A program made the position numbers and the translations under genes. 64,000 nt of DNA from a virus (Duplodnaviria > Heunggongvirae > Uroviricota > Caudoviricetes), in the IMG/VR virus record IMGVR_UViG_3300009502_000019; one strand, 5' to 3'. The notes below the pieces were generated by a model that did no database searches, had not been told where the DNA came from, and saw only the letters and a program-made list of their open reading frames with translations. This document shows, one piece after another, positions 2,870-62,320 of this stretch. Each line of letters starts with the position of its first letter. Within the stretch, counting starts at the first letter, position 1.

Positions 2870-3964
2870 CTATTTTTCCTTCAACCCATTCAAGTCGATC
2901 GCGTAAAAGAAAGTCATTATGCGGTCATCTGTAACCCCCCAGACACACTGAGTGGGCTCTGAGTACTTAGCCATGGACTCTGAAAGTCCGTCCCCCCCTA
3001 CAGTAGACCCTCCACGAAATACTCTGACACCATCAACGTCATCTACCGAGAAGTGATGAAAATGACCGTAGACAACTGCCTTTGCTTCGTTGGCCCGCGC
3101 CCACGCGTTAAACTTAACGCGTCCGGAAGGTGTCCCACCCTGCTCCGGGGCCCTGTGCATTGCTAGGTAGTTGTGCCCGCGGATCTTGAAGTTAAGAGCC
3201 TCGGTGTTTTCTGCATAATCTACTATAACCTTATTCGACAGCTTTTGTGTTTCAACCCAGAAATCCAAGATCTTGTAGATCATTATGTCCCAGTTTGAGG
3301 TGGGATCAGTCTCCTTGCCGGTCCTACCGTGGTTCCCACGAACACCGTAGAAGCTAACCGGGAGCTTCCTGTCCACAAATGCAAGCATCAGCTGTATGAG
3401 CACATCCACACAAAGCATTACCTGCTTTGGAGGCGGCATCTCTTGCTCGTAAGCCTGGGTGGCGTAAATGTCTTCGCCATTAGTTAGATCCCCGGTCGCT
3501 ATAATAACAACGTCAGTGATCGGAACTCCCTTACTGATATTGTTATCAAGTATCTTGAGGATATTCAAACAGAGGTGCTCGATCCTGTTACGAAAAATAT
3601 TTTCGTCGTATATTGTACCATCCTGGTCCTTGACTATTTTTCCAGCGTGAAAGTCCGTTAGGTGTACTACCAACGTGTCACCATTTTTAGGCGGCTTCCT
3701 ATCCTTTCTCTTAAGCTTATATGACTTAAGAGACTTCAGATGCTCGTTCATCTTGTCAATAAAACTAGACTCTTCCTCGTTCATGCCTTGATATGACTCC
3801 TGGCTCTTACACTCTCTCTGACACTTCGGTCTAGTACCACGTGTCTGATGCTCAACTGATCCTATTGTCCTGCCCATAATCCTTGCTATGGAGGAGTCGT
3901 TGTGCCCATCCCTAATCAACCGGTCCAACTGCTCTAAGTCCTGTGTTCCCCATTCTTTAGCCAT
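2870..3964 (-). CDS. Calcineurin-like metallophosphoesterase with N-terminal HTH region
   Basis: 364 aa. Motifs VHLTDFHAG, GDLTNGED, GNHG and GHFHH match the MPE D-x-H / GD / GNH(D/E) / GH-x-H signature. The N-terminus has an HTH-like SSIARIMGRTIGSV segment. Confidence 0.7.
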   Translation of the reverse strand: MAKEWGTQDLEQLDRLIRDGHNDSSIARIMGRTIGSVEHQTRGTRPKCQRECKSQESYQGMNEEESSFIDKMNEHLKSLKSYKLKRKDRKPPKNGDTLVVHLTDFHAGKIVKDQDGTIYDENIFRNRIEHLCLNILKILDNNISKGVPITDVVIIATGDLTNGEDIYATQAYEQEMPPPKQVMLCVDVLIQLMLAFVDRKLPVSFYGVRGNHGRTGKETDPTSNWDIMIYKILDFWVETQKLSNKVIVDYAENTEALNFKIRGHNYLAMHRAPEQGGTPSGRVKFNAWARANEAKAVVYGHFHHFSVDDVDGVRVFRGGSTVGGDGLSESMAKYSEPTQCVWGVTDDRIMTFFYAIDLNGLKEK

Positions 3965-3977: not shown

Positions 3978-4493
3978 TTATTTTAGGCAGCACTTTTTGT
4001 GTTTTTTACCAGAACCACATGGACAAAGATCATTACGTCCAACCTTGTAAGCAGGCTTCGAAGCTCTGTCAAAGAGTGTCACCCCGTCAAGATGGTCACA
4101 TTCGTGCTGTAGTATAAAAGCCTCCATGCCGTAAAAGATTGCACGACGGCTCTCACCACTATCAAAGTCAAGCCACGAACATGTGACTTGCATGTACCGG
4201 TCCGTGCTCAAACGGACTCCGGGGAAGCTCAAGCAACCTTCGTTTTCACTAACAGTCGGAAAATGGGTTGCCTCTATCTTCGGATTGACCATGTTGACAA
4301 ATAAGCCGAGCTCCAGTTTCACAACACAAGCCCTAACGTCCAATCCGATTTGATTCGCGGAGAGCCCTACTCCTGGAACAGGGCTCTCCGCTAGTTCGCT
4401 AGATAGCTTTGAAAACACGTCAAGAGACTTACACTCTTCAATAGTGGTCTCCCTACATGGTATTGTAAGCTTCTCGCGATCCTGAACTATCAT
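3978..4493 (-). CDS. def: Peptide deformylase with C-terminal SEC-C zinc motif
   Basis: 171 aa. The three PDF motifs are present: [16 protein letters not shown] and HECDHLDG. C-terminal [13 protein letters not shown] is a SEC-C metal-binding tail. Confidence 0.85.
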
Positions 4494-6383: not shown

Positions 6384-6908
6384 TCATTTTAGCCATTGAG
6401 CACCACCAAACCTTCTACCATACTCGGCCAGTAGAAGCCCATCTGCGTCATCGAACCCCGTAAAGTCAATCTTCGGAAACGTCCGCTTTCCCACAGCTAA
6501 AGAAGCCTTCTTGAGCTCCGGGCCCTTGAGCCCTTCCGGAAGCATCTTCTTCTGCCACTCCTTACTATCAACGACACGATACCCAATCTTAAGACGCTCA
6601 ATAACAATCAGAGTGGCCTCATACGACCGAACAGCGGACTCAGTGGCCTTAAACCGTGTTGGGTTCACCATGGGCCGCTCCAGAAGCACAAAAGCCGGCA
6701 AAAGAACCTTGTTCACAGACAAAGCATAGTCAAGTATCTTCGTAAAAGCAGCCTCAAGAGCCGGCGTGTCAATTCGTGTAAAATACTGCTTCTGCTTTGT
6801 ATAGTGCAGGAGCTTCATAGTAGGAGTGCGACACAAGTGTGCCTCGCCGTTATCGTACACAGCACCAATTTGTCCAGAAATTCCATTGTCGATCCCGATA
6901 ATGGTCAT
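6384..6908 (-). CDS. RuvC-like Holliday junction resolvase (phage type)
   Basis: 174 aa. N-terminal IIGIDNGISG (catalytic Asp) and C-terminal DDADGLLLAEYG match the RuvC/RNase H-fold resolvase pattern seen in lactococcal-phage-type RuvC. Confidence 0.7.
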   Translation of the reverse strand: MTIIGIDNGISGQIGAVYDNGEAHLCRTPTMKLLHYTKQKQYFTRIDTPALEAAFTKILDYALSVNKVLLPAFVLLERPMVNPTRFKATESAVRSYEATLIVIERLKIGYRVVDSKEWQKKMLPEGLKGPELKKASLAVGKRTFPKIDFTGFDDADGLLLAEYGRRFGGAQWLK

Positions 6909-9850
6909 GAATCTCTCCTGACGTTCAGCGTGCTAATGCCATGTTCCTTCTTGACCACCCACACCTGATCGGCATAGCTACTAAGATTAAGCGCATGATC
7001 TATTACAAACACATTGCGGCTCTTACCCTCGCTGTAGAGTAGATCCGCCACAGACTCCTCGCCTGATCTGTCCAAAAACGAAAACACCTCATCAAGAATA
7101 ACAATTCCAAGTATACCAGATGGTACCTGGTACTTCTCTGACACGAACTTATTTAGGCCAAAACACAGCGATACATCAACGCGTCTCTTCTCTCCGCCTG
7201 ACAACGCCTCATACTTAGTCTCGTTGCCATTAAGACGAATAAGCATCCCGATCTTGTTACGCTCCTCACCGGCCTTAGTGGTCTTAGTCGGAGTCATCAT
7301 GATGCTCATGGTCCCGCCACTCACCGTAGACAAATACCCGTTAATAGTCGCATTAATATCATTGCAGAACCTGTCCAGAAGAACCGACCGGATGCCCTTT
7401 GGTGAGAAGGCTGTCTTCCAGAAAGAAAGCTTCTCGATCTTCTCCTCGGACTGTCTGATACGCGTACTGAATCTGCCCATAACTTCTTCAAGTATTTTGA
7501 TGGCCTCTTCTTTATCGTCCCTGTCTACTGTAAGCCCATGCTTCTCCTTGCGGATACCGTCAGCGCGTACCGAATACTCGTCTATAAATGACTTATGTCG
7601 CTCAATTTCACCACGCATACGTTCTTGTGCCATCTCGAGCTCGTGCTGCTTCGACAGCTGCTCTGTCTTTAGGCGGTTAAGCCTGGACAGCTCTGGACCG
7701 ATCTCAGACTCCTGCGCCTTGAAGCCGTCCTCCTTTGCGTCAAGCTGAACTAGCCTAAGCATTACATCTTTTAAAGCAGCTTCCTTACCCTTTAACTCCG
7801 CCTCAATAACAGTCCTGTCAGCATCGATCTGAACAAGATCGGACTCCTTGTCATTGATAAAAGAGTCCACGCTGTCCTCTGACACTGTGGATCCGCACTT
7901 GTCACAGCGGACACCTACCTGTGCCCCTCTGAGAACGTTTATCTCGCTCTCAATCTTCTTCCTAGACGCTTTCAAAGAGTCGAGCTCCACCTTCAAAACA
8001 ACCATTTTAGCAGAGCAGTCCCCCTGCTCCTTATGAACTAAGTCAACCGTCTCACGGATAGCCTCAAGCTTCTTGTGGATAGTTTCCTTAGCCTCCTCTG
8101 TCTCTCGTATCTTTGAGTCGTAATCAACCTTCTCAAAGGAAAGCTTGACAACCCCGTTAGACTTAAGCTCAGCGATCCCGTCTTTGTGTGTATCTATCGC
8201 TGCCAGGCACTCCTTAACTTTGTGCGCCTTTTCTTCGATAGCCCTCAGAACCCCATCAAGAACTGCCCGGGCTACGGCAAGGTCCTTCTCGGACTCAGTC
8301 TTAGCCCGCTCGTCCTTTAATATGTCCCCGCTTATCTTGGTCGTCTTCTGAAGAACCAGCTCCTGCAAGTCGTCATACTGATCAAACCCAAGAAGGTCCG
8401 TTATCATGCTCGTCTTCTCGGTGTCAGACATCTTAGCCATCATAAGGAGATTTTCCTGGCTAAAGTATACTGACGACAGGAACACGCTCTTATCGAACCC
8501 AAGAATGCCCTCCAGTAGCTCCTGAGCCTGCTTCTGGAGCATCCCCTCGGTAGGGAGCTTCGCCTGACCATTCTCGATAACCATGACTGACAAACCGCTC
8601 TTGCGACTTCTCTTAACGATCACATTTGAACCTCCAGCGTCAAGAAGAAGTTCAACAGAGCAGTCGTTCTGACCATTTCGTATAACATCATCTCCAGTAA
8701 GTCCCTTTGTGGTCTCCCCAAATAGGGCCCAGCATATTGACTCGCCTATTATGGAGCTCTTGCCACTCCCATTACTGCTAAACCCATCCGACTCTCCAGT
8801 AATGAGCGTGAAGCCACTCTCCGGAACCTTGTACTCCGCGGACTGAATGGACAAAAAATCTTGAATGGAAACCTTAGCCAGCCTTCCCTTGTAAAAGCTC
8901 TTCACAAACGACATCTTCTCATCCAAGATGTCCTTAACAAGATCAAAATATGTGTCGTCTTTTCCGTTGAGCTCTATCCACTCGTGCACTATCCCATGAA
9001 AGTCCTGCGCCTTGATCCGCTCCTTGAATGTGTCTGGAGTAACCACAGATATCACGTTCTCGTTTTCTATCTTTAGTCTGGTTCCGAACAACTTGTAGTA
9101 GTTCCCATCATCCTTAATGTCTTCAGGGCTGTTGACAGTGATGAACTCTGGGTAATCAAGCTTGTGGAAGGTGCAGGTGCCCTCGTCCGTGTCGACCGTC
9201 CATACCCCGCGGCGCCCGTCATCTCCGAATGTAAATGGCATCGGAGCTCCAATGATGAAGCAGTTCTCGCTTAGCTTCTGCATTTGGTGGATATGCCCAA
9301 ACGCTACAAATTTATTTTGGGAGGCCAGCCGGCGCCAGTTAGTTCCCTCGCCAAAGGTGTAATTACCCAACTGAGCGCCGACTGGAGTCTTATGAACAAC
9401 AACTAGATCATACCCCTTGACCTTCTCGTAATCGATCTCGTCCTGAAAATTGATCAGACACAGCTTTCCCTTACCGAGACATTCTGCATTAGGGAAGTCG
9501 AGTGGAAATGTTGCCCGGAACCCTTCAAGTATGTTCGTGAGCAGGTGGTGATCTTTTGGTGCAGTTCTTATAGGTGTGTCGTGATTGCCGCAGACAAAGA
9601 GTATCGGTGTTTCAAAACTTCCAAGAAGGTCCTTGCTTAGGTTGAGAACCTCGTTACTAATAGTGCCGACTGAATGCCCCCAGTCGCCACCATGAATAAT
9701 ACAATCGACCCGCTCTCTCTTAAAAACAGATACTGCCTGAAGAAAATTATCCCGCTGCTTTAAGAGTCTCTTTGAGATCCTGTTCTCGTGACATTGGCCG
9801 AACGCTTGCCAATTCTGAAAATGGGTGTCCGATACAAGACCAAAACGCAC
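6905..9850 (-). CDS. Fused SbcD(Mre11)-SbcC(Rad50) nuclease-ATPase, single polypeptide
   Basis: 981 aa. N-terminal MPE motifs DTHF, GGDWGHS, GNHD and GHIHQ. Then Walker A GSGKSS, long coiled coils with a CDKCGS zinc-hook CxxC, ABC signature LSGGEKRRV, Walker B ILDEVFSFLD and an H-loop VIDHA. Confidence 0.85.
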   Translation of the reverse strand: MRFGLVSDTHFQNWQAFGQCHENRISKRLLKQRDNFLQAVSVFKRERVDCIIHGGDWGHSVGTISNEVLNLSKDLLGSFETPILFVCGNHDTPIRTAPKDHHLLTNILEGFRATFPLDFPNAECLGKGKLCLINFQDEIDYEKVKGYDLVVVHKTPVGAQLGNYTFGEGTNWRRLASQNKFVAFGHIHQMQKLSENCFIIGAPMPFTFGDDGRRGVWTVDTDEGTCTFHKLDYPEFITVNSPEDIKDDGNYYKLFGTRLKIENENVISVVTPDTFKERIKAQDFHGIVHEWIELNGKDDTYFDLVKDILDEKMSFVKSFYKGRLAKVSIQDFLSIQSAEYKVPESGFTLITGESDGFSSNGSGKSSIIGESICWALFGETTKGLTGDDVIRNGQNDCSVELLLDAGGSNVIVKRSRKSGLSVMVIENGQAKLPTEGMLQKQAQELLEGILGFDKSVFLSSVYFSQENLLMMAKMSDTEKTSMITDLLGFDQYDDLQELVLQKTTKISGDILKDERAKTESEKDLAVARAVLDGVLRAIEEKAHKVKECLAAIDTHKDGIAELKSNGVVKLSFEKVDYDSKIRETEEAKETIHKKLEAIRETVDLVHKEQGDCSAKMVVLKVELDSLKASRKKIESEINVLRGAQVGVRCDKCGSTVSEDSVDSFINDKESDLVQIDADRTVIEAELKGKEAALKDVMLRLVQLDAKEDGFKAQESEIGPELSRLNRLKTEQLSKQHELEMAQERMRGEIERHKSFIDEYSVRADGIRKEKHGLTVDRDDKEEAIKILEEVMGRFSTRIRQSEEKIEKLSFWKTAFSPKGIRSVLLDRFCNDINATINGYLSTVSGGTMSIMMTPTKTTKAGEERNKIGMLIRLNGNETKYEALSGGEKRRVDVSLCFGLNKFVSEKYQVPSGILGIVILDEVFSFLDRSGEESVADLLYSEGKSRNVFVIDHALNLSSYADQVWVVKKEHGISTLNVRRDS

Positions 9851-9867
9851 AGCGTCCTCCGGAATCG

Positions 9868-10810: not shown

Positions 10811-11920
10811 TTAATCTTTTTCCTCTTCCTCGACCTTTTCCACTACAGGCGCCACAGTAGACAGAGAACTAAGCCTGTCCAGGTTCTTCTTTACATACTC
10901 CTTAAACTCACTCTTCCGGACCTGCTCTCCGGCGATCTCGACGTAACCACGCTTCTCACCGTCCTTAGCTATCCCATTCGTAATCATGTTTTCCAAGAGA
11001 CCGCTGAACGGATCCACACCCTTATTGAAATAGATATCCAAGCAAGACTCCTGAAACGGCATGGCGATGCGGTTCTTGGACCCCTTTGCTGTTGACATTA
11101 CGCCGACAACACGGTCCGGGTTGTCCACATCCTTGATCTTTCCGGAATAGTTCAGCTCAAGCCTCACAGACGCTGAAAAAGGCATACCAGAGCCTCCAGG
11201 AGTTGTCTTGGGGTTGCCGAACATTACACCAATCTTGGTGGTAACGTGGTTGGCCACTACGTGCATGATATTGCCCTTCTTCATGTACCTAGCAGAGTTC
11301 CTTAGAGCTGCCCGTATTTGCTTAGCCTTCGTCATATCGGGCTTCTCTAGCATCACCTCCTGCTCGTGCCTCGTAGACAACAGCGCAAGGCTGTCCAGAG
11401 CGATCAAAATAGGGCACTCAGTATCCTTCTCCCAAATAAGATCCACGAGCCCCGGCTTGCTCTTTCCGTTAGAGTCCTTCCACCCAAGAAAAACCTTCTC
11501 AAAGTGTTCCTCAACTGTAAGCGAGCTGAGAAGAATGAGCGCACTGCTGTCAATGCCGAGCATGGCCCCAAACTGCTCCGTGTAAGCGTCTTCGGTATCG
11601 TCCAAAATGGCAATGCCACCCATCTGCTGAACAGCGGCAATCCAGTGGTATATGAGAAGCGACTTACCTGTGGAAGGGTCACCAAACACTTCAATAACGC
11701 GCCCGAAAGGGAGCCCTCTAGTGTAGTCGCCTGAAATTACTTTGTTGAGAGCGTAGTTTCCGGAGTCAAGCCAGAAATCTACCTTAGACTCTGTGCCTGA
11801 CGCGACCCCCTCTACTTTGCTAATAAGGCTTGATATGAACTTCGGATCAATGCCTTTCACACCTTTATCGACCACCGGCAGCTTCGGATGTCTCTTCAAA
11901 GGCTCTTCGACCTGTGTCAT
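10811..11920 (-). CDS. RecA/UvsX-family recombinase
   Basis: 369 aa. Walker A GDPSTGKS in a RecA-like core. The N-terminus carries EEPLKRHPKLPVV. Confidence 0.85.
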   Translation of the reverse strand: MTQVEEPLKRHPKLPVVDKGVKGIDPKFISSLISKVEGVASGTESKVDFWLDSGNYALNKVISGDYTRGLPFGRVIEVFGDPSTGKSLLIYHWIAAVQQMGGIAILDDTEDAYTEQFGAMLGIDSSALILLSSLTVEEHFEKVFLGWKDSNGKSKPGLVDLIWEKDTECPILIALDSLALLSTRHEQEVMLEKPDMTKAKQIRAALRNSARYMKKGNIMHVVANHVTTKIGVMFGNPKTTPGGSGMPFSASVRLELNYSGKIKDVDNPDRVVGVMSTAKGSKNRIAMPFQESCLDIYFNKGVDPFSGLLENMITNGIAKDGEKRGYVEIAGEQVRKSEFKEYVKKNLDRLSSLSTVAPVVEKVEEEEKD

Positions 11921-11993: not shown

Positions 11994-12965
11994 CTACATA
12001 TTCAAAAACTTGTCCCTGCACGATGCCTTGAATGTGCACGGAACGCACTCAGGGCGCCTTGGTCCGTACAGCTCTCCGAAACACTCGGGGGTTTCTCCTC
12101 CTTCGTCCGAAGTACTCTCCACGGATTCGACAACAGGAAGCTTTTGGTGGGTCTTCAAAGGCTCTTCATGCTTCACCTCAGCCACTGGAACAGGAAGCTT
12201 TTGGTGTCTCCTCATTGGCTCTTCCTGATCAGCCGGGTGCTTCTCCACCGCAGCCGCAGCACGTACAGCACCAACATCAACGGCACCTTCGCCTCCCTCC
12301 AATGTAATCTTAAGCTCTTCATAAGATTTAGCTTTTGGAACCTCGTTTTTAAGAAGTTCTATCGCCTCCTTAAAGTTCTTCGGAAGATATCCACGTGCCG
12401 AAGACACTGACGGGTCTGGAGCCGCGCTGTAGCTTGCGTAGCCACTCTGGGATTGCTTGGCACTTACTTTTGTAATAACAACATCCCTACCAGTGTCCAA
12501 GTCGAGAATGTCGCCCCACTTTGGGTTCTCTATAAACCCCTTAAGATCCGTATGGACCTGAATACCGGCCTCCATAATCTGGATGCCTTTATCCTTGTTG
12601 TTCAAGTCAACTACGTTAAACAAATAACGAGTCTTCTTGCTGATCTTCCTGGCTAGCTTCTCGTCTTCGGGGTCTTTTGTCGCCCAAAGCTTTGCGGCGA
12701 CCTCACAGATAGGGCACCGTATCTTGGTTGTGACCGTCTCCCAAGTCTTGGGACACACCTCAGCCGTCTTGCTACCCTCAACACCAAGCTGGTAGTGCAT
12801 CATGTACTTGTACCCAAAGTACGGTATGTTGCTGGAGAAGTACTCAAGTGAAGGAGGCAGAATCCTAATGTTGTTGTCGCCATCCTGCAGCTCAAACCTG
12901 TTCTCCTTACCGGCCTTCTTTTCTGACTGCTCTCTCATCTTTACAATGTCTAAGCCCATCTGCAT
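11994..12965 (-). CDS. gp32-like single-stranded DNA-binding protein
   Basis: 323 aa. Collinear with T4 gp32: NNIRILPP, an H/C...C-x13-CPICE zinc subdomain and a KTRYLFNVVDL core. The C-terminal tail has tandem EEPMRRHQKLPVP / EEPLKTHQKLPVV repeats. Confidence 0.7.
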   Translation of the reverse strand: MQMGLDIVKMREQSEKKAGKENRFELQDGDNNIRILPPSLEYFSSNIPYFGYKYMMHYQLGVEGSKTAEVCPKTWETVTTKIRCPICEVAAKLWATKDPEDEKLARKISKKTRYLFNVVDLNNKDKGIQIMEAGIQVHTDLKGFIENPKWGDILDLDTGRDVVITKVSAKQSQSGYASYSAAPDPSVSSARGYLPKNFKEAIELLKNEVPKAKSYEELKITLEGGEGAVDVGAVRAAAAVEKHPADQEEPMRRHQKLPVPVAEVKHEEPLKTHQKLPVVESVESTSDEGGETPECFGELYGPRRPECVPCTFKASCRDKFLNM

Positions 12966-13526: not shown

Positions 13527-15914
13527 TTAGTTCACCTTGACCTCCTCTAGTTCGCCCCAGTTCTTGCCGAACGAGTAATCAAACTTCATAGGCACTTTTA
13601 GCCACGAAAAGCTTCTAGGAAGGTCAATGGAACATACACTGTTCATCTCATGAGCAACATCGTAAAGAGGCTCCTCGGGGCCCTCAAACACTATTGAGTC
13701 ATGGACCGTAAGAATCGTCCTGACGGGTAGCTTATACTTGGCTATGATTCGTCGCATCCTTACCATCGTAAACAAAATCATGTCTGAACTACTGCCCTGA
13801 ACAGGACTGTTTACGGCCTGCCTAGTGATATCATCAGGTACATTGGTTGCTAATACGCCTTTTGCCTCTGGAAACCGGCGCATCCTTCCTGTAGGATACT
13901 CCACAAACCCGCATTTTGACAAAACACGTCTGGTCCTGGCGTACCAGGGTTCAAAACCCGTATACGTTGAGAAGTACGCGTTACGAAAAGCCCTACACTC
14001 TTCAATCGACAACTTAACCCCATACTTCGTCTCTGCGTACACCTGGAACCCTTCTGCAGACTGCCCGTAAACAAAGCCAAAATTGATCCCCTTAGCGATT
14101 TGACGCTGATCCTTGGTTACGTCCTTCTCTGCAACGTGGAGGGCCTTAGAGGCCGTTAAACGATGAATATCATGCCCATCCTGGTAGGCTTGTATCATTG
14201 TCGGCTCCGGAGCAACAGAACAAGCCACCCTGAGCTCCATCTGACTGGCATCTGCCTGAAGCAGAATACATCCGGGAGAGGCCACAAACATCTTCTTTAC
14301 AGCCTTGTCCCTAGGGATGTTCTGGAGGTTTGGCCCTGAGCTGGAAAGCCGTCCTGTGCGGGCACCACAGATATTGAAATTACCGTGAAGCCTACCATCG
14401 TCCTTTATAAGCCCCGGAAGCTTCTCCACATAGGTTGAAAGCATCTTCTCATGCTTACGTATTCTGATTAGATACGTCGCCAGCTTATACCCCTGCCTTG
14501 ACAGGTTCTCAAGAACCTCATTATCGGTACTTAGTAATCCAGACTCTGTCTTCTTGAGAACAGGATATTTCAGTACCTTAAACAAAAGATCACGTAACTG
14601 CTTAGTAGAGCTTAGGTTAACATCTTTTGACTCAGGGTATGTGTCAGCGATAGCCTCATACACGGCCTCGAGCCTTCTGTGAATATCTCCAGCAAGTGCT
14701 GTACTCGCGGCAGTGTCTATGAGAACCCCTTCAAGCTCCATACCAACAATAACCTCAATCATCGGCATCAAAACAGTCTCAAACAGGCTCCACATTACCG
14801 GGCTAAGCCGGATCTCGGGCTCAAACTTGCGAAACAGCCCCATGGTGTTGTTGCAGTCTTCACAGTTGTAAATGCACAGCTTTACCATGTCCTTCGTAAA
14901 CTCGAACATGCACCCATCCAGGTACTCTGCTGACAGCTGCTTAAGGCCTATCGAGTGCCTGTTCTCGTCAAGTAAAAACGCCATAACCATCGTATCAGCG
15001 TAAAAGTTCTTATAGGAAACCCCCATCTTCACGAGAACCTTAAGGTCAAACGCGGCATTGTGTGCGATCTTCTTAGACGGTCCTGACATGACAGTCCTCA
15101 CTAGATCCCAACACTTATCACGGAACTCAATGTTAACGTTCTCAGGATGGTCCAAAGGAACCGAGTAACACTTCCCTCCACCAAGGCCAAATCCGCAACT
15201 CCATAGATTCATCGCCTTGTCAAAAACGTCAAGCATCTCATTAGTCTCAACGTCAAAACTAATGAGCTCTGGTGAGGCCAACACAAGATCGCTATACGCC
15301 GCGGCAAGCTTATCTTCGGTGTCCACAACGATAAAGTTGTTATCCGAACCAAGATCGTTGTGCAGATACCGGTGGGCCGTATTAAGATCTTTTCTAAGCC
15401 TTGGTAGGGAAGTTGGATTACGAATACAATATGCCGGGTCGATAACAGGAAGAAAAGTCATGCCCATAGTCTGCATGAAATTACCGGCCCTACTCATGAT
15501 GCGTTCTTTGGGAAAAAACGCCTCCAGAGCTGCTGCTCCGACAAGCACAACAAGCTTCGGCTTTAGATCCTTTAGCTCATTAAAAAGATACATGCCAGTG
15601 CAAAGCTTCAGAGCCTTCTTCTTTGGAGGCTCATTCGCTGGCGGGTTGCACCGGCATGCGTTCGTAAAAGTTACTTGTGATACGTTAAAACCTACCTGTG
15701 ATAGTGTCTTTCTGAACAGCTTTCCGCTCTCACCGCCAAATGGAACCCCTTCAACAGCGTCAATCCCTGTTGGAGCATCACCAACAACAACTAAATCATT
15801 GTTGCAGGTGTACGAAGGAACAAAAATACGCGACAAGTATGGGCACTTGGCGCATTCTTCTCGCTTAGTTTTGTCTTCATTCTTAGCAGATATGAGCTTT
15901 GCAACATTGACCAC
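13527..15914 (-). CDS. Family A DNA polymerase with N-terminal UDG-like domain and 3'-5' exonuclease
   Basis: 795 aa. PolA motifs: ADASQMELRVAC (motif A), RQIAKGINFGFVYG (motif B), VHDSIVFE (motif C). Exonuclease motif ISFDVETNE. N-terminal ~170 aa has a family-4 UDG-like GDAPTG...GESGKLF motif. Confidence 0.9.
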   Translation of the reverse strand: MVNVAKLISAKNEDKTKREECAKCPYLSRIFVPSYTCNNDLVVVGDAPTGIDAVEGVPFGGESGKLFRKTLSQVGFNVSQVTFTNACRCNPPANEPPKKKALKLCTGMYLFNELKDLKPKLVVLVGAAALEAFFPKERIMSRAGNFMQTMGMTFLPVIDPAYCIRNPTSLPRLRKDLNTAHRYLHNDLGSDNNFIVVDTEDKLAAAYSDLVLASPELISFDVETNEMLDVFDKAMNLWSCGFGLGGGKCYSVPLDHPENVNIEFRDKCWDLVRTVMSGPSKKIAHNAAFDLKVLVKMGVSYKNFYADTMVMAFLLDENRHSIGLKQLSAEYLDGCMFEFTKDMVKLCIYNCEDCNNTMGLFRKFEPEIRLSPVMWSLFETVLMPMIEVIVGMELEGVLIDTAASTALAGDIHRRLEAVYEAIADTYPESKDVNLSSTKQLRDLLFKVLKYPVLKKTESGLLSTDNEVLENLSRQGYKLATYLIRIRKHEKMLSTYVEKLPGLIKDDGRLHGNFNICGARTGRLSSSGPNLQNIPRDKAVKKMFVASPGCILLQADASQMELRVACSVAPEPTMIQAYQDGHDIHRLTASKALHVAEKDVTKDQRQIAKGINFGFVYGQSAEGFQVYAETKYGVKLSIEECRAFRNAYFSTYTGFEPWYARTRRVLSKCGFVEYPTGRMRRFPEAKGVLATNVPDDITRQAVNSPVQGSSSDMILFTMVRMRRIIAKYKLPVRTILTVHDSIVFEGPEEPLYDVAHEMNSVCSIDLPRSFSWLKVPMKFDYSFGKNWGELEEVKVN

Positions 15915-20742: not shown

Positions 20743-22185
20743 CTAGCAAAACTCTACTTCAAACTGCTCTTGCTTGTATATAGACATTCTTTCTTTCGAA
20801 TGCTTAAGTAAGTATTTATTACCGTGGTCGCAAAAATCGTACACCGACACAACATTTTCTCCCTCCTTACGGCGAAGACTCCTACCTATCCTCTGAAGCA
20901 ACTGCCGGCGCGACTTCTTACCAGCAAGAAGGATTAACACTTCAATCCGGCTGATGTCAATTCCCTCGTCAATGATGTTTGTACTAATAAGTATCTGTAG
21001 TTTACCGGCCTTGAAGTCAGACAACGCCTGAGCCCTGTGGGCAGCTTTTCCTGATATGAACACAGAACTTATCCCGTTATTACTTAGTAGCTGCTCAACA
21101 ATCTCCCCATGCTCAAGGTAGTCCACCACGATCAAAGTTGACTTACCTGGGTTGTTCTTGATGATCTCGACGGCCTTTCCGTTGCGCTCGCTGTTCTGCA
21201 CGATGCCGAGCTTGACTACCATCTCGTATACCTTCTTCATGAGCTGCTGGCCAGAATAGAGCTCGTCTTTGGCCTCGAGCTCCGCCTTGGCCATTCCGAT
21301 AACGCCGCGAACCTGGCTTGAGACGTCCATCTCATACATGAAGATCTTGGGCTTCGCTGACACGTCAAGCGCTATCAACTCGTCGTTTGAGATCTTGTAG
21401 ACCACGTCTCCCAAAAACTGCCTCACCAAAACTCCGTTGTATTCGTTGGCAGGTGGCACCGTGCCACTGAAGCCCCAGCGGTAAGGCGCCGGGCATGCTT
21501 CAAGTACAGCAGTGAACTGCGCCGCCTGAGCATGGTGAACCTCGTCCTGTATAACGCACTGGAGACTTTTAAAATAGTCATCAACCTCCTGGTCAGCTCC
21601 GAGTCTATTAACAAGAGTTGTAATCATAGCTACAGTAACTGGTCTTATAAGAATGTCTTTCGCCGTAATGAAGCCGCACTTAAGTCCCGTGTACCTTTCA
21701 ATATACTCCACAGTCTGCTTCAACAGCTCCGACCTGTGTGTTAACACGAGAGTTGGCGCCGGAGCAAGCTTCTTTATCAACCCTGAGAAAATGGCCGTCT
21801 TCCCAGCGTTTGTGGCAGCCTCAATTAAGCAGTTCTTGTTAGCAATGCACTCGTCGATCGCCTTTAGCTGGTAATGCCGATCAGGATCATTAACGTCAAT
21901 TGTGTTGAGCTCAAGGCGTCCCTGGTCCACCTTCGGAAACTTCCTATTATCCACAACGTCAATCTTACGGAGCTTCCCGGACCTTAGCACATAGGACAAC
22001 AGCCCTATCGGAAACACACCCGTCCTAATGTCAAACATCCGTTTCTTACCGTCCCACTGGCCTCTCTTGTACGCCATCGAGTACTTAGCCCCTGGAACGT
22101 CAAAAGTGAGCACACTCCTTATCCACATAAGCTCTTCCCTGGTTCCCTGAACAAAACACTTACTTGGGCATAATAGGATTATCAA
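20743..22185 (-). CDS. SF2 DEAD/DEAH-box helicase
   Basis: 480 aa. Walker A TNAGKTAIF, DEAH box DEVHHAQA and motif VI QRIGRSLRR. Confidence 0.8.
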   Translation of the reverse strand: MIILLCPSKCFVQGTREELMWIRSVLTFDVPGAKYSMAYKRGQWDGKKRMFDIRTGVFPIGLLSYVLRSGKLRKIDVVDNRKFPKVDQGRLELNTIDVNDPDRHYQLKAIDECIANKNCLIEAATNAGKTAIFSGLIKKLAPAPTLVLTHRSELLKQTVEYIERYTGLKCGFITAKDILIRPVTVAMITTLVNRLGADQEVDDYFKSLQCVIQDEVHHAQAAQFTAVLEACPAPYRWGFSGTVPPANEYNGVLVRQFLGDVVYKISNDELIALDVSAKPKIFMYEMDVSSQVRGVIGMAKAELEAKDELYSGQQLMKKVYEMVVKLGIVQNSERNGKAVEIIKNNPGKSTLIVVDYLEHGEIVEQLLSNNGISSVFISGKAAHRAQALSDFKAGKLQILISTNIIDEGIDISRIEVLILLAGKKSRRQLLQRIGRSLRRKEGENVVSVYDFCDHGNKYLLKHSKERMSIYKQEQFEVEFC

Positions 22186-25059: not shown

Positions 25060-25080
25060 TTTATCCCCCTTTTATGTTAG

Positions 25081-25152
25081 TGCACCCACCAGGGCTCGAA
25101 CCTGGAACCAAAGGATTATGAGTCCTCTGCTCTACCATTGAGCTATGGGTGC
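25081..25152 (-). tRNA. tRNA-Met (anticodon CAT), or a lysidine tRNA-Ile
   Basis: Folds by hand: acceptor GCACCCA/TGGGTGC, D-arm GCTC-AATGGTA-GAGC, anticodon stem GAGGA/TCCTT with loop CTCATAA, T-arm CCAGG-TTCGAGC-CCTGG. CCA is not encoded. Confidence 0.8.
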
Positions 25153-25180: not shown

Positions 25181-25414
25181 TTACTCAAACTCCTTTAACT
25201 CTTGATCCTTAATAACTACATGAATACGCTCATCATCGTGCTTTGACCCAAACATACCGAAGTGCTCCATAACCGCCCAAAGAAGCTTACGACCATTCCT
25301 GGCTTCCGAGGCATGCTCGTCATCTTCAACAGCAATAAACCTCTCGCTCTTAGTGTCAGCGTCCTCGTATCGCAAAACAAACCCGTTATCCGCGTCTTCA
25401 ATCGTAAGTCTCAC
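25181..25414 (-). CDS. Hypothetical small acidic protein
   Basis: 77 aa ORF. Confidence 0.4.
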   Translation of the reverse strand: MRLTIEDADNGFVLRYEDADTKSERFIAVEDDEHASEARNGRKLLWAVMEHFGMFGSKHDDERIHVVIKDQELKEFE

Positions 25415-26871
25415 CTAGTCCTCCTGTCTTGTGCTTCCCGTTCACGTACCCTGTTTAATGCTTCTACTCCAACAATGTCTATGATGTACTTTGGCCAGTT
25501 ATCAGATGCTACGGCCTCAGGGTCCTTCCACGGGTGTATCTTAACAAGATCCCACGGAGCACTATAGGACCTTAAACTCCTGTCAAAGTCGACAAGCCAT
25601 CCGTAAAAAGGGTCCCACCCGTTTCGAGACTTCCCGACACAAAATATAGTCGGGCTAACGTCTTTATTTGCCCCGTCGTACTGACGCACAATTAGAAGTG
25701 TTGTATCCGCGATCTTGGCGATATTGCTCGATCCGTGGAAATCATCATTGTCAGGCATCTTCTTGTCTCTTGCCTTACGGCGCAGGTGGGAGAACATAAG
25801 CACAGGAATGCCACGCGCCTGAGTTAGGTCCTTGACCTTCCGCATGATCCCAGAGAGCTGAGAAGCCTCGGACGAGTCGTCTTCCATTCCGAAGTAATGC
25901 AAGTGGTCTACGACGACAAGGTCTGCATCCTGTATCCTACCGAGCTGCTGGAGTAGCTTATCAATGCGAAGGTCTGACTCGTTCTTGCCGTAGATGACCA
26001 ACTTACCCCTAAGTGCTGCCAACTCCTTCTCAGCAATCGCCTCAAAGCGCTCAATCCCTCGCAACCCATTGGCAAGATAAAGCGGGTAGGACATTGGCAT
26101 CCCCTTATTGGGGTTCTCGGGTGAGAAGTATTCCCTGGCGATGATCTCGTACTTGAACCGAGATATAACCTCATTCTTTGAACCTTCCAAGCAAATCAAG
26201 TATGTCTTCTTCCCAGCCATCGCATTGATGCGTGCTGTGTCGGCGCCGAATTGAGTTTTCCCGACACCACTCTCGGCTCCTACTACAACAAGTTCCCCTG
26301 GAAATATTCCAAGCAAGCACTCATTCAAAGCCGGTACAGAGTACTTGACTAGTTTGTCCGGTGTAATCCTAGCTAGGTCCCTGTTCTGCCGGTCTATAGC
26401 CTGATCAATCTCCATGAAAAACGAGTTGTCAAACGAATCGCCAAGTGGCTTCCTGGGTGCCTTCTCAACCGTCTCCATGAACTGGTAAGCCAACTGCCTG
26501 TAGTCGCTCCCTGGAGTGATCTTGTTGACGATCTTGATGAGGTTGCGCTCAAATACGAACCGGCCAAGCTCTTGGTAGACCTTGTCGATCAGGACTTCTG
26601 TACTTACATCGGTTACTACGGCCGCGATATCGTTTAAGGTTTTCTCGTAGGTCTTAATATTAGCCTTCTCATGGTCCGGGAGATCCCCGAGCATCATGAG
26701 CATGTCGCCGAACGTAGGGCGTTTGAAGTACTTGTCGTCGAAGCGGTAGGCTAGCTCAAGCAGGTTGCTCTGCACGGCATTTTCGAAGATGTCCTTTGGG
26801 AGCTTCCCGCAGAACTCGGCAAATACAGCGTCGTCAGTAAGGAACTTCTGCCAGAATGGTAGCCAGTTCAT
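25411..26871 (-). CDS. DnaB-like replicative DNA helicase
   Basis: 486 aa. Walker A GAESGVGKTQF, Walker B LVVVDHLHY, RecA-like C-terminal domain and an N-terminal helical domain. Confidence 0.85.
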   Translation of the reverse strand: MNWLPFWQKFLTDDAVFAEFCGKLPKDIFENAVQSNLLELAYRFDDKYFKRPTFGDMLMMLGDLPDHEKANIKTYEKTLNDIAAVVTDVSTEVLIDKVYQELGRFVFERNLIKIVNKITPGSDYRQLAYQFMETVEKAPRKPLGDSFDNSFFMEIDQAIDRQNRDLARITPDKLVKYSVPALNECLLGIFPGELVVVGAESGVGKTQFGADTARINAMAGKKTYLICLEGSKNEVISRFKYEIIAREYFSPENPNKGMPMSYPLYLANGLRGIERFEAIAEKELAALRGKLVIYGKNESDLRIDKLLQQLGRIQDADLVVVDHLHYFGMEDDSSEASQLSGIMRKVKDLTQARGIPVLMFSHLRRKARDKKMPDNDDFHGSSNIAKIADTTLLIVRQYDGANKDVSPTIFCVGKSRNGWDPFYGWLVDFDRSLRSYSAPWDLVKIHPWKDPEAVASDNWPKYIIDIVGVEALNRVREREAQDRRTR

Positions 26872-28586: not shown

Positions 28587-29534
28587 CTATTCATACAGGC
28601 TTTGTTTTATGTACTCTTTGAATATAAGTGCGGTCTTTTTTCCAATAGCAGTTTGGGCTTCTTTACTAAAAACAATTTCTCCGACACTCTCTTTAAGCAC
28701 GTCCTCAACCATTGCTTTTATAATAGCCCCTGTTTCTGTAATAGTAGCATCCGGAAACCTATCAAGCACATGCATGAGGCGTTGACGCGTGACCCACTCG
28801 TCCGCGATAGCCTGTGCCTCTGTGAGTACTTCAAGGCGCTCTTTAGACACCTCTCTTTTCTTGGCAGTCTCCTGGAACTTCTCATTCTTGTGCTTGGCTA
28901 TTATCCGCTCACCATTGTTCTTCCGGAGCTCAACAAGAGTCCGTAAAACCACACCTTCACGGATATGCCCGGGCCCAACACCATTCCGCACAGCCTGGAC
29001 AGAGTCTGCCTCGGAAAGTGCATTTAAAACATCAAGATCTGTGGCAACCTCTTCATAATGAACAAACTCAATGCCGAGCTGAGCACACACAGACTCCGCG
29101 TTAGGCACAGCAAGCCAGTTTCCACCAAGCTTGACGTCGAAGGCTATAAACTTAAGCTCTTTGCCGTATGTGCCAGACATGCCCTGCTGCTTGCCACCAT
29201 AAGCTTCCCCAAAAACAATGAGCTCCTTGATGTTCATGGCTCGAAACTTGTTTTCTAGGTCTTGGTGGTTAAACAGTTTTATAAAGTTTTCGTGCTTTTC
29301 ACCGCCGGAGAAAAAATGCAGTTCAATCTTGTCAGGCCAGCGTTCTTGCCATTCAGCCTCAGTGTACCGCCTCGCGTCCTCGTTAACACCAATGATAGGT
29401 CCAAACACAAGCTGCCTGGACCGGTCAAGGCTAATATGTGCTGATGTTCCGTGGATCTTCTCCATAGCGTAGCAGCGCTTGAACATAAGAATTTCCTGGT
29501 TCTTGTAAAGATTATCTATCCCGAGATAGCCCAT
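28587..29534 (-). CDS. RNA ligase, Rnl2 (T4 RnlB)-like
   Basis: 315 aa. Motif I EKIHGTSA (lysine nucleotidyltransferase), matching T4 Rnl2 EKIHGTN, plus the downstream nucleotidyltransferase core. Confidence 0.7.
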   Translation of the reverse strand: MGYLGIDNLYKNQEILMFKRCYAMEKIHGTSAHISLDRSRQLVFGPIIGVNEDARRYTEAEWQERWPDKIELHFFSGGEKHENFIKLFNHQDLENKFRAMNIKELIVFGEAYGGKQQGMSGTYGKELKFIAFDVKLGGNWLAVPNAESVCAQLGIEFVHYEEVATDLDVLNALSEADSVQAVRNGVGPGHIREGVVLRTLVELRKNNGERIIAKHKNEKFQETAKKREVSKERLEVLTEAQAIADEWVTRQRLMHVLDRFPDATITETGAIIKAMVEDVLKESVGEIVFSKEAQTAIGKKTALIFKEYIKQSLYE

Positions 29535-34959: not shown

Positions 34960-35465
34960 GTCTGGTAAGGGTCCTTGGCCACGGCTTCATTGAAGGCGAT
35001 AACGGCAGCTTCGAGATCAGCAGATGGGTCCCAGTCTTCGTGAACATCGTCTTCAAGGAACTCATACACGTTAAGGACACGGCGTCGGTTCTGTTTGCAG
35101 AGCACTAGCTGCAGTTCCTCTGGCTCCAACCCTTCATCGTCGCAGTAATCAAGCAGGTCCTGCTCGTCAAAGAAGTAGGTGTCCGTGTCATAGATGGAGA
35201 TTGGCGTCTTGTAGTCCCACTGAATGACCTTAAACTTCTCAAACTTCTCTTGCTTTGATTTCTCTCTGCAGGACTCGCACTTTGTCCACCCCTTTTCCAT
35301 GGTTGCTCCACACTCGCACTTCAAGTGAGTGCATCCGGACCAGCGGGCCATGTGCTCATTGTCTCCCCAAAAGTGACCGTCTTTAGACATCCATCCGGTC
35401 ACAGTTACTTTTTTTGCTGCTTCGTCAGAGCTGTATTCGATCATAACGCCCCCTACTTTATGCAC
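34896..35465 (-). CDS. Hypothetical protein with Cys cluster
   Basis: 189 aa. CTHLKCECG...CESC zinc-binding-like cluster and an acidic middle. Confidence 0.45.
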   Translation of the reverse strand: MHKVGGVMIEYSSDEAAKKVTVTGWMSKDGHFWGDNEHMARWSGCTHLKCECGATMEKGWTKCESCREKSKQEKFEKFKVIQWDYKTPISIYDTDTYFFDEQDLLDYCDDEGLEPEELQLVLCKQNRRRVLNVYEFLEDDVHEDWDPSADLEAAVIAFNEAVAKDPYQTWFATDTRVTLAPKEKEAENT

Positions 35466-36919
35466 CCGAGACGCTTGCGAATGTCTGCAAGTGTGTACTC
35501 GGTTACGATTTTGCCATCTTCAAATACGGTTGTAAGCAGCCCAAGATCCTCTTGTTCTGGCGTGACATCTTCAATCATCGTGAGCTCTCCGGTTGTAGCA
35601 TCTTGATTAACCTGCAAGAGCCCGCGGGCGGACTTCTTGATCCCGCTATCGGTTTTCGGGTCCTTGTAGATAGTCACAGGCTTTCCGTTGATGATGCCCC
35701 AGGTAGCTTTCATGGCAAACCCGAAGGTGTCACGTGTCACAAACTGGTAAGTGTAGCTTCCGATGCCAAACACCATGTTCGTGGACGCAAACCCCTTTCG
35801 TGCAAGACCTTCACAAATGGCTTCGCACCGCTCAAGTGTGATGCTGTCGCCATAGATTACCCCAATGTGCTTGTCGAGTTGCTTGAACCCTTTAGCGTTT
35901 GTGTAGCCGCCAAAGGTGTTCCACAGAAGCTCAACAGTGCCGGCTTTGGCTGCTGGATCATCACTCACAGCGTCGCCACAGATGATCTTCACAGGATCAC
36001 CACTGTCGGGGCGAACCACAAGCCGACCGTTCCGGTTCATAATTACATCTTTTAGAGCCGGAAGGGTCTTCGTGATCACATTCCAGTAGTCCCATGTGTC
36101 AGACACAACAGAGACAATGCCAGTAGGATAGATCTCAGTAAGGAGCCTGCGAAACGTCTCTTCTTCTGACAGAAGACCACCGAGGCACATGACCGAGTGC
36201 TCCGTTGCCGGAACACTGCCACCTACCATCTCCTTGTCAGAGTCAGCGCCGTAATATTCTTCAAGGAAGTCGATCGCTGGGACCGTGTCCGTGCCCGTAA
36301 AGCTAAGCAGATGGCCAGCAGCAGACATTAGGGCTCCCTCAATCCCAAATATTCCTCGCATCGAGAAGTCATGGCCCTGCCAGTTGACAAACTCCGGAAT
36401 GTCAGATGTCCTTGCCGCGTACCCATCCAGCATCTTTCTGTAGGCGTAGGCTGTAGATGCTGAAGTGGTTGGGCCCCACACGATATTACACATGACTGTT
36501 TCCATGAAGTTTGTTAGCCAAAAAAACTTCGGGTGGGTGTTCCGGATCGTTAGGATCGGAATACGCATCGGACACAGAGTTCCTTCTGGAAGAGCTTTGA
36601 GCAGAATAGGAAGGTATCCAAGATCATGAAGCTCCCCAACGTGCTCAATGGGAACAGAGTCTTTTCCAAGAGCATTATCAAGGCGCCGTTTGTACTTGCG
36701 AACAACCTCGTCTTTTGGTTGGTTGAAAAAGTCCTCATTCCACCGCTTAATCAAGTACTCTTTGACAAAATACTGGATTCCAAACACGACCACGTGGTCG
36801 ACCCCAGGCACACGGCTCCCGCGAGGCGTTAGATTGGAGTACACGATCTCAGTTCCTGTCGGGTACTGCCTTCTATGGTCTGTTTTGTAGAAATCCTTGA
36901 GTACAATGGGTGAAATCAT
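35453..36919 (-). CDS. nadV: Nicotinamide phosphoribosyltransferase (NAMPT/NadV)
   Basis: 488 aa, collinear with NAMPT/PBEF family proteins (length and core GIQYF...DSGDP...GVIYGD). Confidence 0.8.
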   Translation of the reverse strand: MISPIVLKDFYKTDHRRQYPTGTEIVYSNLTPRGSRVPGVDHVVVFGIQYFVKEYLIKRWNEDFFNQPKDEVVRKYKRRLDNALGKDSVPIEHVGELHDLGYLPILLKALPEGTLCPMRIPILTIRNTHPKFFWLTNFMETVMCNIVWGPTTSASTAYAYRKMLDGYAARTSDIPEFVNWQGHDFSMRGIFGIEGALMSAAGHLLSFTGTDTVPAIDFLEEYYGADSDKEMVGGSVPATEHSVMCLGGLLSEEETFRRLLTEIYPTGIVSVVSDTWDYWNVITKTLPALKDVIMNRNGRLVVRPDSGDPVKIICGDAVSDDPAAKAGTVELLWNTFGGYTNAKGFKQLDKHIGVIYGDSITLERCEAICEGLARKGFASTNMVFGIGSYTYQFVTRDTFGFAMKATWGIINGKPVTIYKDPKTDSGIKKSARGLLQVNQDATTGELTMIEDVTPEQEDLGLLTTVFEDGKIVTEYTLADIRKRLGCIK

Positions 36920-45082: not shown

Positions 45083-45083
45083 C

Positions 45084-45122
45084 CTATATTACGGCTGTTT
45101 CAAGAAAAAATTATGATATTTC
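45084..45122 (-). promoter_or_regulatory. Conserved promoter-like repeat, copy 4
   Basis: ctatattacggctgtttcaagaaaaaattatgatatttc, immediately upstream of the start at 45082. Confidence 0.55.
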
Positions 45123-62311: not shown

Positions 62312-62320
62312 AATAAAATT

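What the first reader, a model, noticed from the sequence alone, without database searches (positions are those of the whole stretch)
6905..9850. Single-chain SbcD-SbcC (Mre11-Rad50) fusion
The nuclease (DTHF, GDWGH, GNHD, GHIHQ) and the complete Rad50-like ATPase (Walker A, CxxC zinc hook, signature, Walker B, H-loop) lie in one 981-aa ORF. T4 gp47/gp46 and bacterial SbcD/SbcC are normally separate polypeptides. A natural fusion is architecturally unusual and could be useful for structural work.
Basis: seen in the sequence. Interest (0 to 1): 0.55.

Follow-up and report, generated by a model that had tools for sequence, protein, structure and literature searches.

The report
Phage single-chain Mre11–Rad50 nuclease
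This is a genuine one-polypeptide version of the Mre11–Rad50 (SbcD–SbcC) DNA-end-processing machine in an uncultured phage of about 200 kb, but such natural fusions were described in 2011 and are common in viruses, so it is a new member of a known kind and not a surprise.

Summary
Window 6905..9850 (minus strand) is one 981-aa ORF with a strong ribosome-binding site.

Residues 1–282 are an Mre11/SbcD nuclease plus capping domain. Residues 283–315 are a conserved helix-loop-helix, and 316–322 a short connector. Residues 323–981 are a complete Rad50/SbcC ATPase with a coiled coil of about 150 residues per arm and a CxxC zinc hook.

It is not an assembly frameshift:
- Near-identical 981-aa copies occur in independent JGI, ENA and Logan assemblies.
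- About 70 homologous clusters at 25–64 % identity are also single chains.
- 125 of the best 150 cluster representatives in an exhaustive search are 900 aa or longer.
- All catalytic residues of both halves are invariant or nearly so, and the junction is conserved and almost free of indels.

The gene sits in a T4-like recombination module (gp32-like SSB, RecA/UvsX, resolvase, UvsW-like helicase, PolA).

The claim of rarity does not hold. Yoshida, Claverie and Ogata (2011) described natural Mre11/Rad50 fusions and their abundance in viromes. Cultured Rhizobium, Ralstonia and Vibrio phages encode checked single-CDS versions. I found no biochemical or structural study of a natural fusion. Interest is low to moderate.

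The parts
6905..9850 (-). Whole ORF: 981-aa single-chain Mre11/SbcD-Rad50/SbcC protein (GTG start; stop codon at 6905-6907)
9856..9860 (-). Shine-Dalgarno GGAGG, 5 nt upstream of the GTG start
   Evidence: homologs also begin at aligned position 1
9209..9850 (-). aa 1-214: Mre11/SbcD phosphodiesterase core (motifs I-V: D8/H10, D56/H59, N89/H90, H153, H186/H188)
9005..9208 (-). aa 215-282: beta-rich capping-like domain of the nuclease
8906..9004 (-). aa 283-315: conserved amphipathic helix-loop-helix (H284-294, H300-315; W291 invariant, E290 nearly so), the probable counterpart of Mre11's Rad50-binding domain
   Evidence: weak alignment to the C-terminal HLH region of T. maritima Mre11; function inferred
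8885..8905 (-). aa 316-322: 7-residue connector, the fusion junction
   Evidence: no indels across 70 homologs; G322 in 62 of 70
8384..8884 (-). aa 323-489: Rad50 N-terminal ATPase lobe (Walker A N360/G361/K364, Q-loop Q465)
7928..8383 (-). aa 490-641: ascending coiled-coil arm, with a break at 563-577
7880..7927 (-). aa 642-657: zinc hook apex, CDKC at 649-652 (nt 7895-7906), C649 and C652 invariant
7409..7879 (-). aa 658-814: descending coiled-coil arm, with a low-confidence stretch at 732-743 opposite the break in the other arm
6908..7408 (-). aa 815-981: Rad50 C-terminal ATPase lobe (signature S884-G886, Walker B D920/E921, D-loop D927, H-loop H952)
6384..6908 (-). Context: downstream, translationally overlapping gene, Holliday-junction resolvase-like (phrog_1770)
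10811..11920 (-). Context: RecA/UvsX-type recombinase, the likely downstream partner in strand invasion
   Evidence: synteny conserved in L003 and L083
11994..12965 (-). Context: gp32-like single-strand DNA-binding protein
   Evidence: synteny conserved

Best explanation
The ORF encodes a functional single-chain Mre11-Rad50 (SbcD-SbcC) enzyme of an uncultured tailed phage of about 200 kb. A full-length SbcD-type nuclease (nuclease core, capping domain and C-terminal helix-loop-helix) is joined through a 7-residue connector to the first residue of a full-length SbcC-type ATPase, with nothing lost or added. Two chains most likely form an (MR)2 homodimer equivalent to the canonical M2R2 complex: the Mre11 halves dimerise, the Rad50 heads engage on ATP and clamp DNA ends, and the coiled coils of roughly 22 nm (150 residues at 1.5 A per residue, my estimate) join through a shared zinc at the CxxC hooks. 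With the neighbouring gp32-like SSB, RecA/UvsX recombinase, UvsW-like helicase and resolvase, it most likely resects DNA ends to start recombination-dependent replication and double-strand-break repair, as T4 gp46/gp47 does. The fusion fixes 1:1 stoichiometry and co-expression. Shown here: the ORF, domains, motifs, fold, conservation of the fusion and the gene context. Inferred: oligomeric state, HLH-coiled-coil contact, enzymatic activities and biological role.
Against: There are no biochemical data for any natural fusion. NCBIfam equivalog models for Rad50, SbcC and Mre11 are hit only far below their cut-offs, so this is a divergent viral clade. The model is a monomer and I had no coordinates or PAE, so the HLH-coiled-coil contact and the dimer are not shown. 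A 7-residue connector is at the short end of the 9-12 residues that Yoshida et al. estimated for the T. maritima geometry. Only 64 kb of the genome was inspected, so a separate SbcC or SbcD elsewhere in the genome is not excluded.
Confidence: 0.85

Rival explanations
1. The single ORF is an assembly or sequencing artefact (a frameshift or lost stop) that joins two adjacent genes, sbcD and sbcC.
For: The closest cultured relatives (Herelleviridae) have two adjacent genes in the same order, and in Bacillus phage Nachito they are even in the same frame, separated by a stop and 18 nt. A spurious-looking fusion does exist: Listeria phage LMTA-57 differs from A511 by a 1-nt deletion in an A-run and reads through the 95-nt spacer.
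Against: The same 981-aa protein occurs in independent JGI, ENA and Logan assemblies. About 70 clusters at 25-64 % identity, 23 of 23 close IMG/VR loci and 125 of 150 representatives are all single chains. There is no spacer remnant: the junction is a conserved, indel-free helix-loop-helix plus a 7-residue connector.
Confidence: 0.01
2. The protein is a bona fide fused MR nuclease, but its main role is not recombination-dependent replication. It might instead degrade host DNA, cleave hairpins or palindromes, or act in competition between phages or in counter-defence.
Against: It has an Mre11-type nuclease plus a CxxC zinc hook. The top structural matches are Rad50/SbcC and Mre11/SbcD, not defence ATPases. 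The gene is embedded between RecA/UvsX, a gp32-like SSB and a Holliday-junction resolvase, and this arrangement is conserved in relatives. I did not scan the PADLOC defence library.
Confidence: 0.1
3. The ORF also yields a free Rad50 ATPase through internal translation initiation near the junction, so the functional complex mixes fused and unfused chains.
For: In-frame TTG, ATG and GTG codons occur at aa 309, 313 and 316.
Against: None has a Shine-Dalgarno sequence upstream. M313 is not conserved and is L, V, F or I in most homologs.
Confidence: 0.03

Closest known systems
Natural Mre11/Rad50 (SbcD/SbcC) fusion proteins described by Yoshida, Claverie & Ogata 2011 (Mimivirus R555, Bacillus phage 0305phi8-36, Clostridium kluyveri and Deferribacter plasmids, some eukaryotes; abundant virome homologs)
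   Same: One polypeptide in the order Mre11 then Rad50. The nuclease motif II has H in place of the third D (GDWGH here; the same substitution is noted for R555). A capping domain plus HLH-length segment is retained before the ATPase. Viral origin, and abundant in metagenomes. Mimiviridae R555-type proteins are found by Foldseek over the full length.
   Different: It is much shorter than R555 (981 versus 1351 aa) with a short, phage-like coiled coil. Identity to Mimiviridae proteins is only 12-14 %. Unlike the 0305phi8-36 protein, it keeps both ATPase lobes and the HLH-length segment. Whether it shares the R555 fusion event or arose independently was not resolved.
Single-CDS fused proteins of cultured phages: Rhizobium phage RHph_TM30 QIG71347 (959 aa), Ralstonia phage RP13 ORF136 (925 aa), Vibrio phage 1.031.O NVP1031O_031 (1054 aa)
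   Same: Metallophos followed by SMC_N/AAA_23 in one CDS. The RHph_TM30 protein is colinear with the query over the whole length, including the junction and the CxxC.
   Different: Only about 21 % identical to RHph_TM30. On a rough head-domain NJ tree RHph_TM30 sits on a separate long branch. Public annotations do not recognise the fusion ('SMC family ATPase', 'coil containing protein', 'SbcD-like subunit').
Split SbcD + SbcC of Herelleviridae (Bacillus phage Nachito, Listeria phage A511 gp114/gp115, Staphylococcus K-like phages) and, functionally, T4 gp47/gp46
   Same: These are the best-scoring cultured relatives at about 24 % identity over both halves, with the same gene order of nuclease then ATPase. 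Query aa 1-282 matches SbcD 1-300 and aa 323 matches SbcC residue 2. They share the extended segment before Walker A (G...F.SNGxGKS). They also sit in a replication and recombination module.
   Different: They are two polypeptides (344 + 668 aa in Nachito). Association depends on a non-covalent interface, whereas here the two are covalently tethered by 7 residues.
E. coli SbcCD and archaeal or Thermotoga Mre11-Rad50 (solved structures 6S6V, 7YZP, 3QF7/3QG5, 3AV0/5DNY, 3QKU)
   Different: 12-22 % identity. The coiled coil is much shorter than in E. coli SbcC (about 150 residues per arm). It is a single chain. Cellular equivalog HMMs are hit only far below their cut-offs.

Membership tests
Mre11/SbcD nuclease | Metallophosphoesterase motifs I-V (DxH, GDxxH/D, GNH[D/E], H, GHxH) with conserved metal ligands | tested here: met
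   D8/H10, D56/H59, N89/H90, H153 and H186/H188 are present and invariant or at least 90 % conserved in 70 homologs
Mre11/SbcD nuclease | Mre11-type fold (nuclease core plus capping domain) as opposed to a generic phosphoesterase | tested here: met
Mre11/SbcD nuclease | C-terminal helix-loop-helix that binds the base of the Rad50 coiled coil | tested here: inconclusive
   A conserved amphipathic HLH is predicted at aa 284-315, and there is a weak, non-significant alignment to the T. maritima Mre11 HLH region. Contact with the coiled coil could not be examined because no coordinates or PAE were available
Mre11/SbcD nuclease | Mn2+-dependent exo- and endonuclease activity | not testable with these tools
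   Needs biochemistry
Rad50/SbcC ATPase | ABC/SMC-type ATPase motifs split between N and C lobes (Walker A, Q-loop, signature, Walker B, D-loop, H-loop) | tested here: met
   N360/G361/K364, Q465, S884-G886, D920/E921, D927 and H952 are all invariant. Pfam SMC_N, AAA_23 and SbcC_Walker_B match
Rad50/SbcC ATPase | Long antiparallel coiled coil inserted between the lobes, with a CxxC zinc hook at its apex | tested here: met
   Model helices 490-641 and 658-814 flank a loop that carries C649-x-x-C652, both invariant
Rad50/SbcC ATPase | Rad50 head fold | tested here: met
Rad50/SbcC ATPase | ATP-dependent head engagement and DNA clamping; zinc-mediated hook dimerisation | not testable with these tools
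   Needs biochemistry or structure determination
Natural Mre11/Rad50 fusion proteins (Yoshida et al. 2011) | Both modules in one uninterrupted ORF in the order Mre11 then Rad50, and not an artefact | tested here: met
Natural Mre11/Rad50 fusion proteins (Yoshida et al. 2011) | Common descent with the Mimivirus R555 clade, i.e. the same fusion event | tested here: inconclusive
   Mimiviridae proteins are matched over the full length by Foldseek at E about 1e-35 but only 12-14 % identity. No R555 sequence was available for a tree. The rough NJ tree only shows that the query's family plus distant IMG/VR fusions form one all-fused clade apart from the split forms
T4-type gp46/gp47 recombination machinery | Genomic association with UvsX/RecA, gp32-type SSB, UvsW-type helicase and a junction resolvase | tested here: met
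   synteny in relatives
T4-type gp46/gp47 recombination machinery | Nuclease and ATPase encoded as two separate polypeptides | tested here: not met
   A single 981-aa chain with no conserved internal start

The most novel reading that the evidence does not exclude
The query belongs to a large, ancient, uniformly fused clade of uncultured phages whose fusion arose independently of the Mimivirus R555-type and Rhizobium-phage-type fusions. In this clade the very short, indel-free 7-residue tether makes the HLH and the Rad50 head one rigid unit. The single-chain enzyme would then run a constrained or different resting-to-cutting conformational cycle from split SbcCD, and could be insensitive to inhibitors that target the Mre11-Rad50 interface.
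Probability: 0.12. Interest if true: 0.4.

Novelty: new member of a known kind. Interest (0 to 1): 0.2.

Why it matters
It matters modestly. The architecture was reported bioinformatically in 2011, and this analysis shows it is the dominant state among this protein's relatives in viral metagenomes. Yet I found no natural single-chain Mre11-Rad50 that has been studied biochemically or structurally. A compact 110-kDa chain with fixed 1:1 stoichiometry, a short coiled coil and a well-predicted fold could be a convenient cryo-EM or single-molecule model for the MR conformational cycle. There is also a practical annotation point. Public records label these proteins 'SbcC-like', 'SbcD-like', 'SMC family ATPase', 'AAA family ATPase' or 'coil containing protein', which hides the nuclease half or the fusion. 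At least one database 'fusion' (Listeria phage LMTA-57) looks like a homopolymer indel.

Tried and rejected
- Megablast of the ORF against the phage collection found nothing, so there is no close cultured relative.
- A single-sequence PDB search found only Rad50 and ABC hits and missed Mre11. A profile of N-terminal halves was needed.
- NCBIfam gave only far-sub-threshold hits to Rad50, SbcC and Mre11 equivalogs, so it is not informative for membership.
- Literature phrase searches for 'Mre11-Rad50 fusion', 'SbcCD fusion' and similar returned nothing, and one term was rejected for syntax. The key paper surfaced only through gp46/gp47 plus 'fused'. Later searches found no experimental follow-up.
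- The afdb50 Foldseek library was unavailable.
- A synonymous/nonsynonymous test across the junction was uninformative, because the only DNA-level relative close enough differs at 2 of 2946 nt.
- Internal initiation of a free ATPase was considered and rejected: no SD, and M313 is not conserved.
- The second metallophosphoesterase at 2870-3964 was considered as a free SbcD paralog and rejected. Only the core motif region aligns (hhalign probability 82 %, 111 columns) and it has no PDB hit.
- A scan of all window ORFs with the family HMM found no second Mre11 or Rad50 gene.
- The genome-contig scan gave only a 6.7-kb contig binned as Nanoarchaeota and one partial ABC-like hit, so there is no host clue.
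Full report
**Observation**

The window has one uninterrupted ORF at 6905..9850 on the minus strand. It is 981 aa with a GTG start. A GGAGG Shine-Dalgarno sequence lies 5 nt upstream of the start, and the TGA stop overlaps the ATG of the next gene as ATGA.

- Nuclease: DTH at 8-10, GDWGH at 55-59, GNHD at 88-91, VVVH at 150-153, GHIH at 185-188.
- ATPase: Walker A NGSGKS at 360-365, Q-loop Q465, signature SGGE at 884-887, Walker B IVILDE at 916-921, H-loop H952.
- Zinc hook: CDKC at 649-652.

Pfam finds Metallophos at 1-191 and SMC_N/AAA_23 at 324-973. PHROGs finds an SbcD-like family over 1-313 (E 2e-25) and an SbcC-like family over 323-976 (E 8e-81).

**Anatomy**

BLASTP against the two-gene arrangement of Bacillus phage Nachito shows that residue 323 of the fusion aligns with residue 2 of the free-standing SbcC. 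Residues 1-282 align with SbcD residues 1-300 of 344. The protein is therefore a full-length SbcD joined head-to-tail to a full-length SbcC, with essentially nothing deleted or inserted.

An AlphaFold2 model built on a 70-sequence alignment is confident (mean pLDDT 84.5, pTM 0.61). It predicts:
- a nuclease core and a beta-rich capping-like region up to about residue 270;
- a helix-loop-helix (helices 284-294 and 300-315);
- a 7-residue connector (316-322);
- the Rad50 N-lobe (323-489);
- an ascending coiled-coil arm (490-641, with a break at 563-577);
- a loop carrying the CxxC;
- a descending arm (658-814, with a matching low-confidence stretch at 732-743);
- the C-lobe (815-977).

About 150 residues per arm corresponds to roughly 22 nm at 1.5 A per residue (my estimate).

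A profile of 21 N-terminal halves hits only Mre11/SbcD chains at the top of the PDB list, led by T. maritima Mre11 at E 3e-9. Its residues around 270-306 align weakly with the C-terminal HLH region of that protein. On its own that alignment is not significant, but it agrees with the model.

**Is the fusion real?**

Yes, on several independent lines of evidence:
- The 90 % identity cluster of this protein has four members, all 981 aa. They were seen on about 11 contigs from JGI, ENA and Logan, with contigs up to about 202 kb.
- A variant from SRR5754711 differs at 2 of 2946 nt and has the same neighbours, as do two ENA assemblies.
- The word-indexed protein search found about 70 full-length clusters (roughly 930-1050 aa) with both domain sets. 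In the alignment they are 25-64 % identical to the query.
- A relative at 63 % identity sits in the same module of gp32, RecA, an unknown gene and the fusion.
- In IMG/VR, all 23 loci with at least 32 % identity carry one stop-free frame of 941-1087 aa.
- The exhaustive HMMER search of 1.84 billion representatives gave 746 hits at E no greater than 1e-30. Of the best 150, 125 are 900 aa or longer and mostly match from residue 1-5 to the C-terminus.
- Across the 70-sequence alignment the metal ligands, P-loop, Q-loop, hook cysteines, signature, Walker B, D-loop and H-loop are invariant or at least 90 % conserved.
- The junction segment (281-340) is conserved with almost no indels. It has an amphipathic pattern (F284, I287, E290, W291, Y301, I305, L309) and G322 before the first Rad50 strand.
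- No conserved internal start exists.

An assembly frameshift is excluded.

**Genomic setting**

The gene lies in a phage replication and recombination module:
- DnaB-like helicase, 25411-26871
- UvsW-like helicase, 20743-22185
- PolA with an N-terminal UDG-like domain, 13527-15914
- gp32-like SSB, 11994-12965
- RecA/UvsX, 10811-11920
- an unknown 256-aa gene
- the fusion
- a Holliday-junction resolvase-like gene, 6384-6908

The family HMM finds no second Mre11 or Rad50 gene in the window. The family is essentially absent from about 186,000 bacterial and archaeal species genomes. The only hit is a 6.7-kb contig binned as Nanoarchaeota, which is probably viral.

**Mechanism (inferred)**

By homology with solved MR/SbcCD complexes, two chains should form an (MR)2 homodimer. 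The Mre11 halves dimerise, ATP engages the Rad50 heads around a DNA end, the hooks share a zinc, and the nuclease processes the end. The resulting 3' single strand would be handed to the SSB and recombinase encoded next door, priming recombination-dependent replication and break repair as in T4.

The fusion fixes stoichiometry and co-expression. In known complexes (background knowledge of the published structures, not tested here) the HLH moves as one body with the Rad50 head. A short tether between the HLH and Rad50 strand 1 should therefore be compatible with the resting-to-cutting transition. None of this was tested here.

**Comparison with what is known**

Natural Mre11/Rad50 fusions were first reported by Yoshida, Claverie and Ogata in 2011 (PMC3175470). 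They described Mimivirus R555, Bacillus phage 0305phi8-36, plasmids of Clostridium kluyveri and Deferribacter, and several eukaryotes. They noted the Mre11-then-Rad50 order, retention of a capping-plus-HLH-length segment, structural compatibility with the T. maritima complex, abundance of homologs in aquatic viromes with a probable phage origin, and probable multiple independent fusions from operon templates.

The collections used here show the same picture:
- Single-CDS fusions were checked directly in cultured Rhizobium phages (RHph_TM30 group, 959 aa), Ralstonia phage RP13 (925 aa) and Vibrio phage 1.031.O (1054 aa).
- Hit tables suggest the same for Escherichia IME392, Acinetobacter, Cobetia and Yersinia phages.
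- BFVD adds Tenacibaculum phages and many Mimiviridae.

The query is only about 21-24 % identical to any cultured-phage protein. A rough neighbour-joining tree on head-domain columns, without support values, groups the query's family with the more distant IMG/VR fusions. Split forms lie outside that group, and the Rhizobium fusion sits on a separate long branch.

Fusion is mutationally easy. In Nachito the two genes are in frame, separated by a stop and 18 nt. The 'fused' CDS of Listeria phage LMTA-57 differs from A511 by a 1-nt deletion in an A-run.

**Verdict**

The finding is real and correctly identified, but the architecture is known and common among viruses. It is a new, divergent member of a known kind. 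The residual value is as a candidate for the first experimental characterisation of a natural single-chain MR enzyme, and as a reminder that public annotations usually name only one half.

Noticed in passing
window 62226-63700 (minus strand); also 25080-25152: A tRNA cluster holds five tRNA-Leu genes with five different anticodons (GAG, TAG, TAA, CAA, CAG) and two tRNA-Arg (TCT, TCG). A lone tRNA-Met sits at 25080. This is an unusually complete Leu set for a phage.
   Followed up: no
window 2870-3964 (minus strand): A second metallophosphoesterase of 364 aa matches phrog_284 'exonuclease' (E 1.5e-45) and is conserved in relatives (L003, L083). It shares only the core motif region with the Mre11 half (hhalign probability 82 %) and has no PDB sequence hit. 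Its role is unknown.
   Followed up: partly
L081 (Listeria phage LMTA-57, KJ591605) versus L082 (A511), junction near locus position 2530: The 1009-aa 'recombination exonuclease' of LMTA-57 was the best BFVD structural match. It results from a 1-nt deletion in an A-run before the gp114 stop and reads through the 95-nt spacer into gp115. This is probably a homopolymer sequencing error or a very recent mutation.
   Followed up: yes
window 13527-15914 (minus strand): The family A DNA polymerase carries an N-terminal uracil-DNA-glycosylase-superfamily domain (UDG, 3'-5' exonuclease, then PolA). The same architecture is present in the 63 % relative L003.
   Followed up: no
window 52199-54358 (plus strand); 28587-29534 and 35453-36919 (minus strand): A 719-aa protein combines a PhoH-like ATPase region with an RtcB-type RNA ligase. 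The window also has an RNA ligase (phrog_548) and a nicotinamide phosphoribosyltransferase. Together these suggest RNA-repair and NAD-salvage functions in the phage.
   Followed up: no
L003 6413-8647 (relative contig, ENA ERZ28656667): In the 63 % relative the RecA gene is interrupted by an intein with a LAGLIDADG endonuclease (744 aa). The window's RecA (369 aa) has none. The relative also has Endonuclease_7 genes and phage-encoded Cpn10/Cpn60 nearby.
   Followed up: no
L004 (JAHIEM010000151.1) / P0061 (MBU3913885.1): A 980-aa fused homolog is deposited in NCBI as 'AAA family ATPase [Nanoarchaeota archaeon]' on a 6.7-kb MAG contig. This is probably a mis-binned viral contig, and the name hides the nuclease half.
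   Followed up: partly
window about 45000-46500: Coding strand and GC skew switch sign near 46 kb. Genes upstream of that point are nearly all on the minus strand and genes downstream on the plus strand. This could be a divergent transcription point or a replication origin.
   Followed up: no
window 8753-8797 (aa 352-366): The segment before Walker A is extended (G352-x7-N360-G-x-G-K-S) compared with the usual GxNGxGKS. The same extension occurs in the free-standing SbcC of Bacillus phage Nachito, so it marks this phage SbcC lineage and is not a consequence of the fusion.
   Followed up: partly
window 3978-4493 (minus strand): By near-identity with L083, this 171-aa gene is a peptide deformylase carrying a SEC-C motif. 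It is an auxiliary host-like gene.
   Followed up: no
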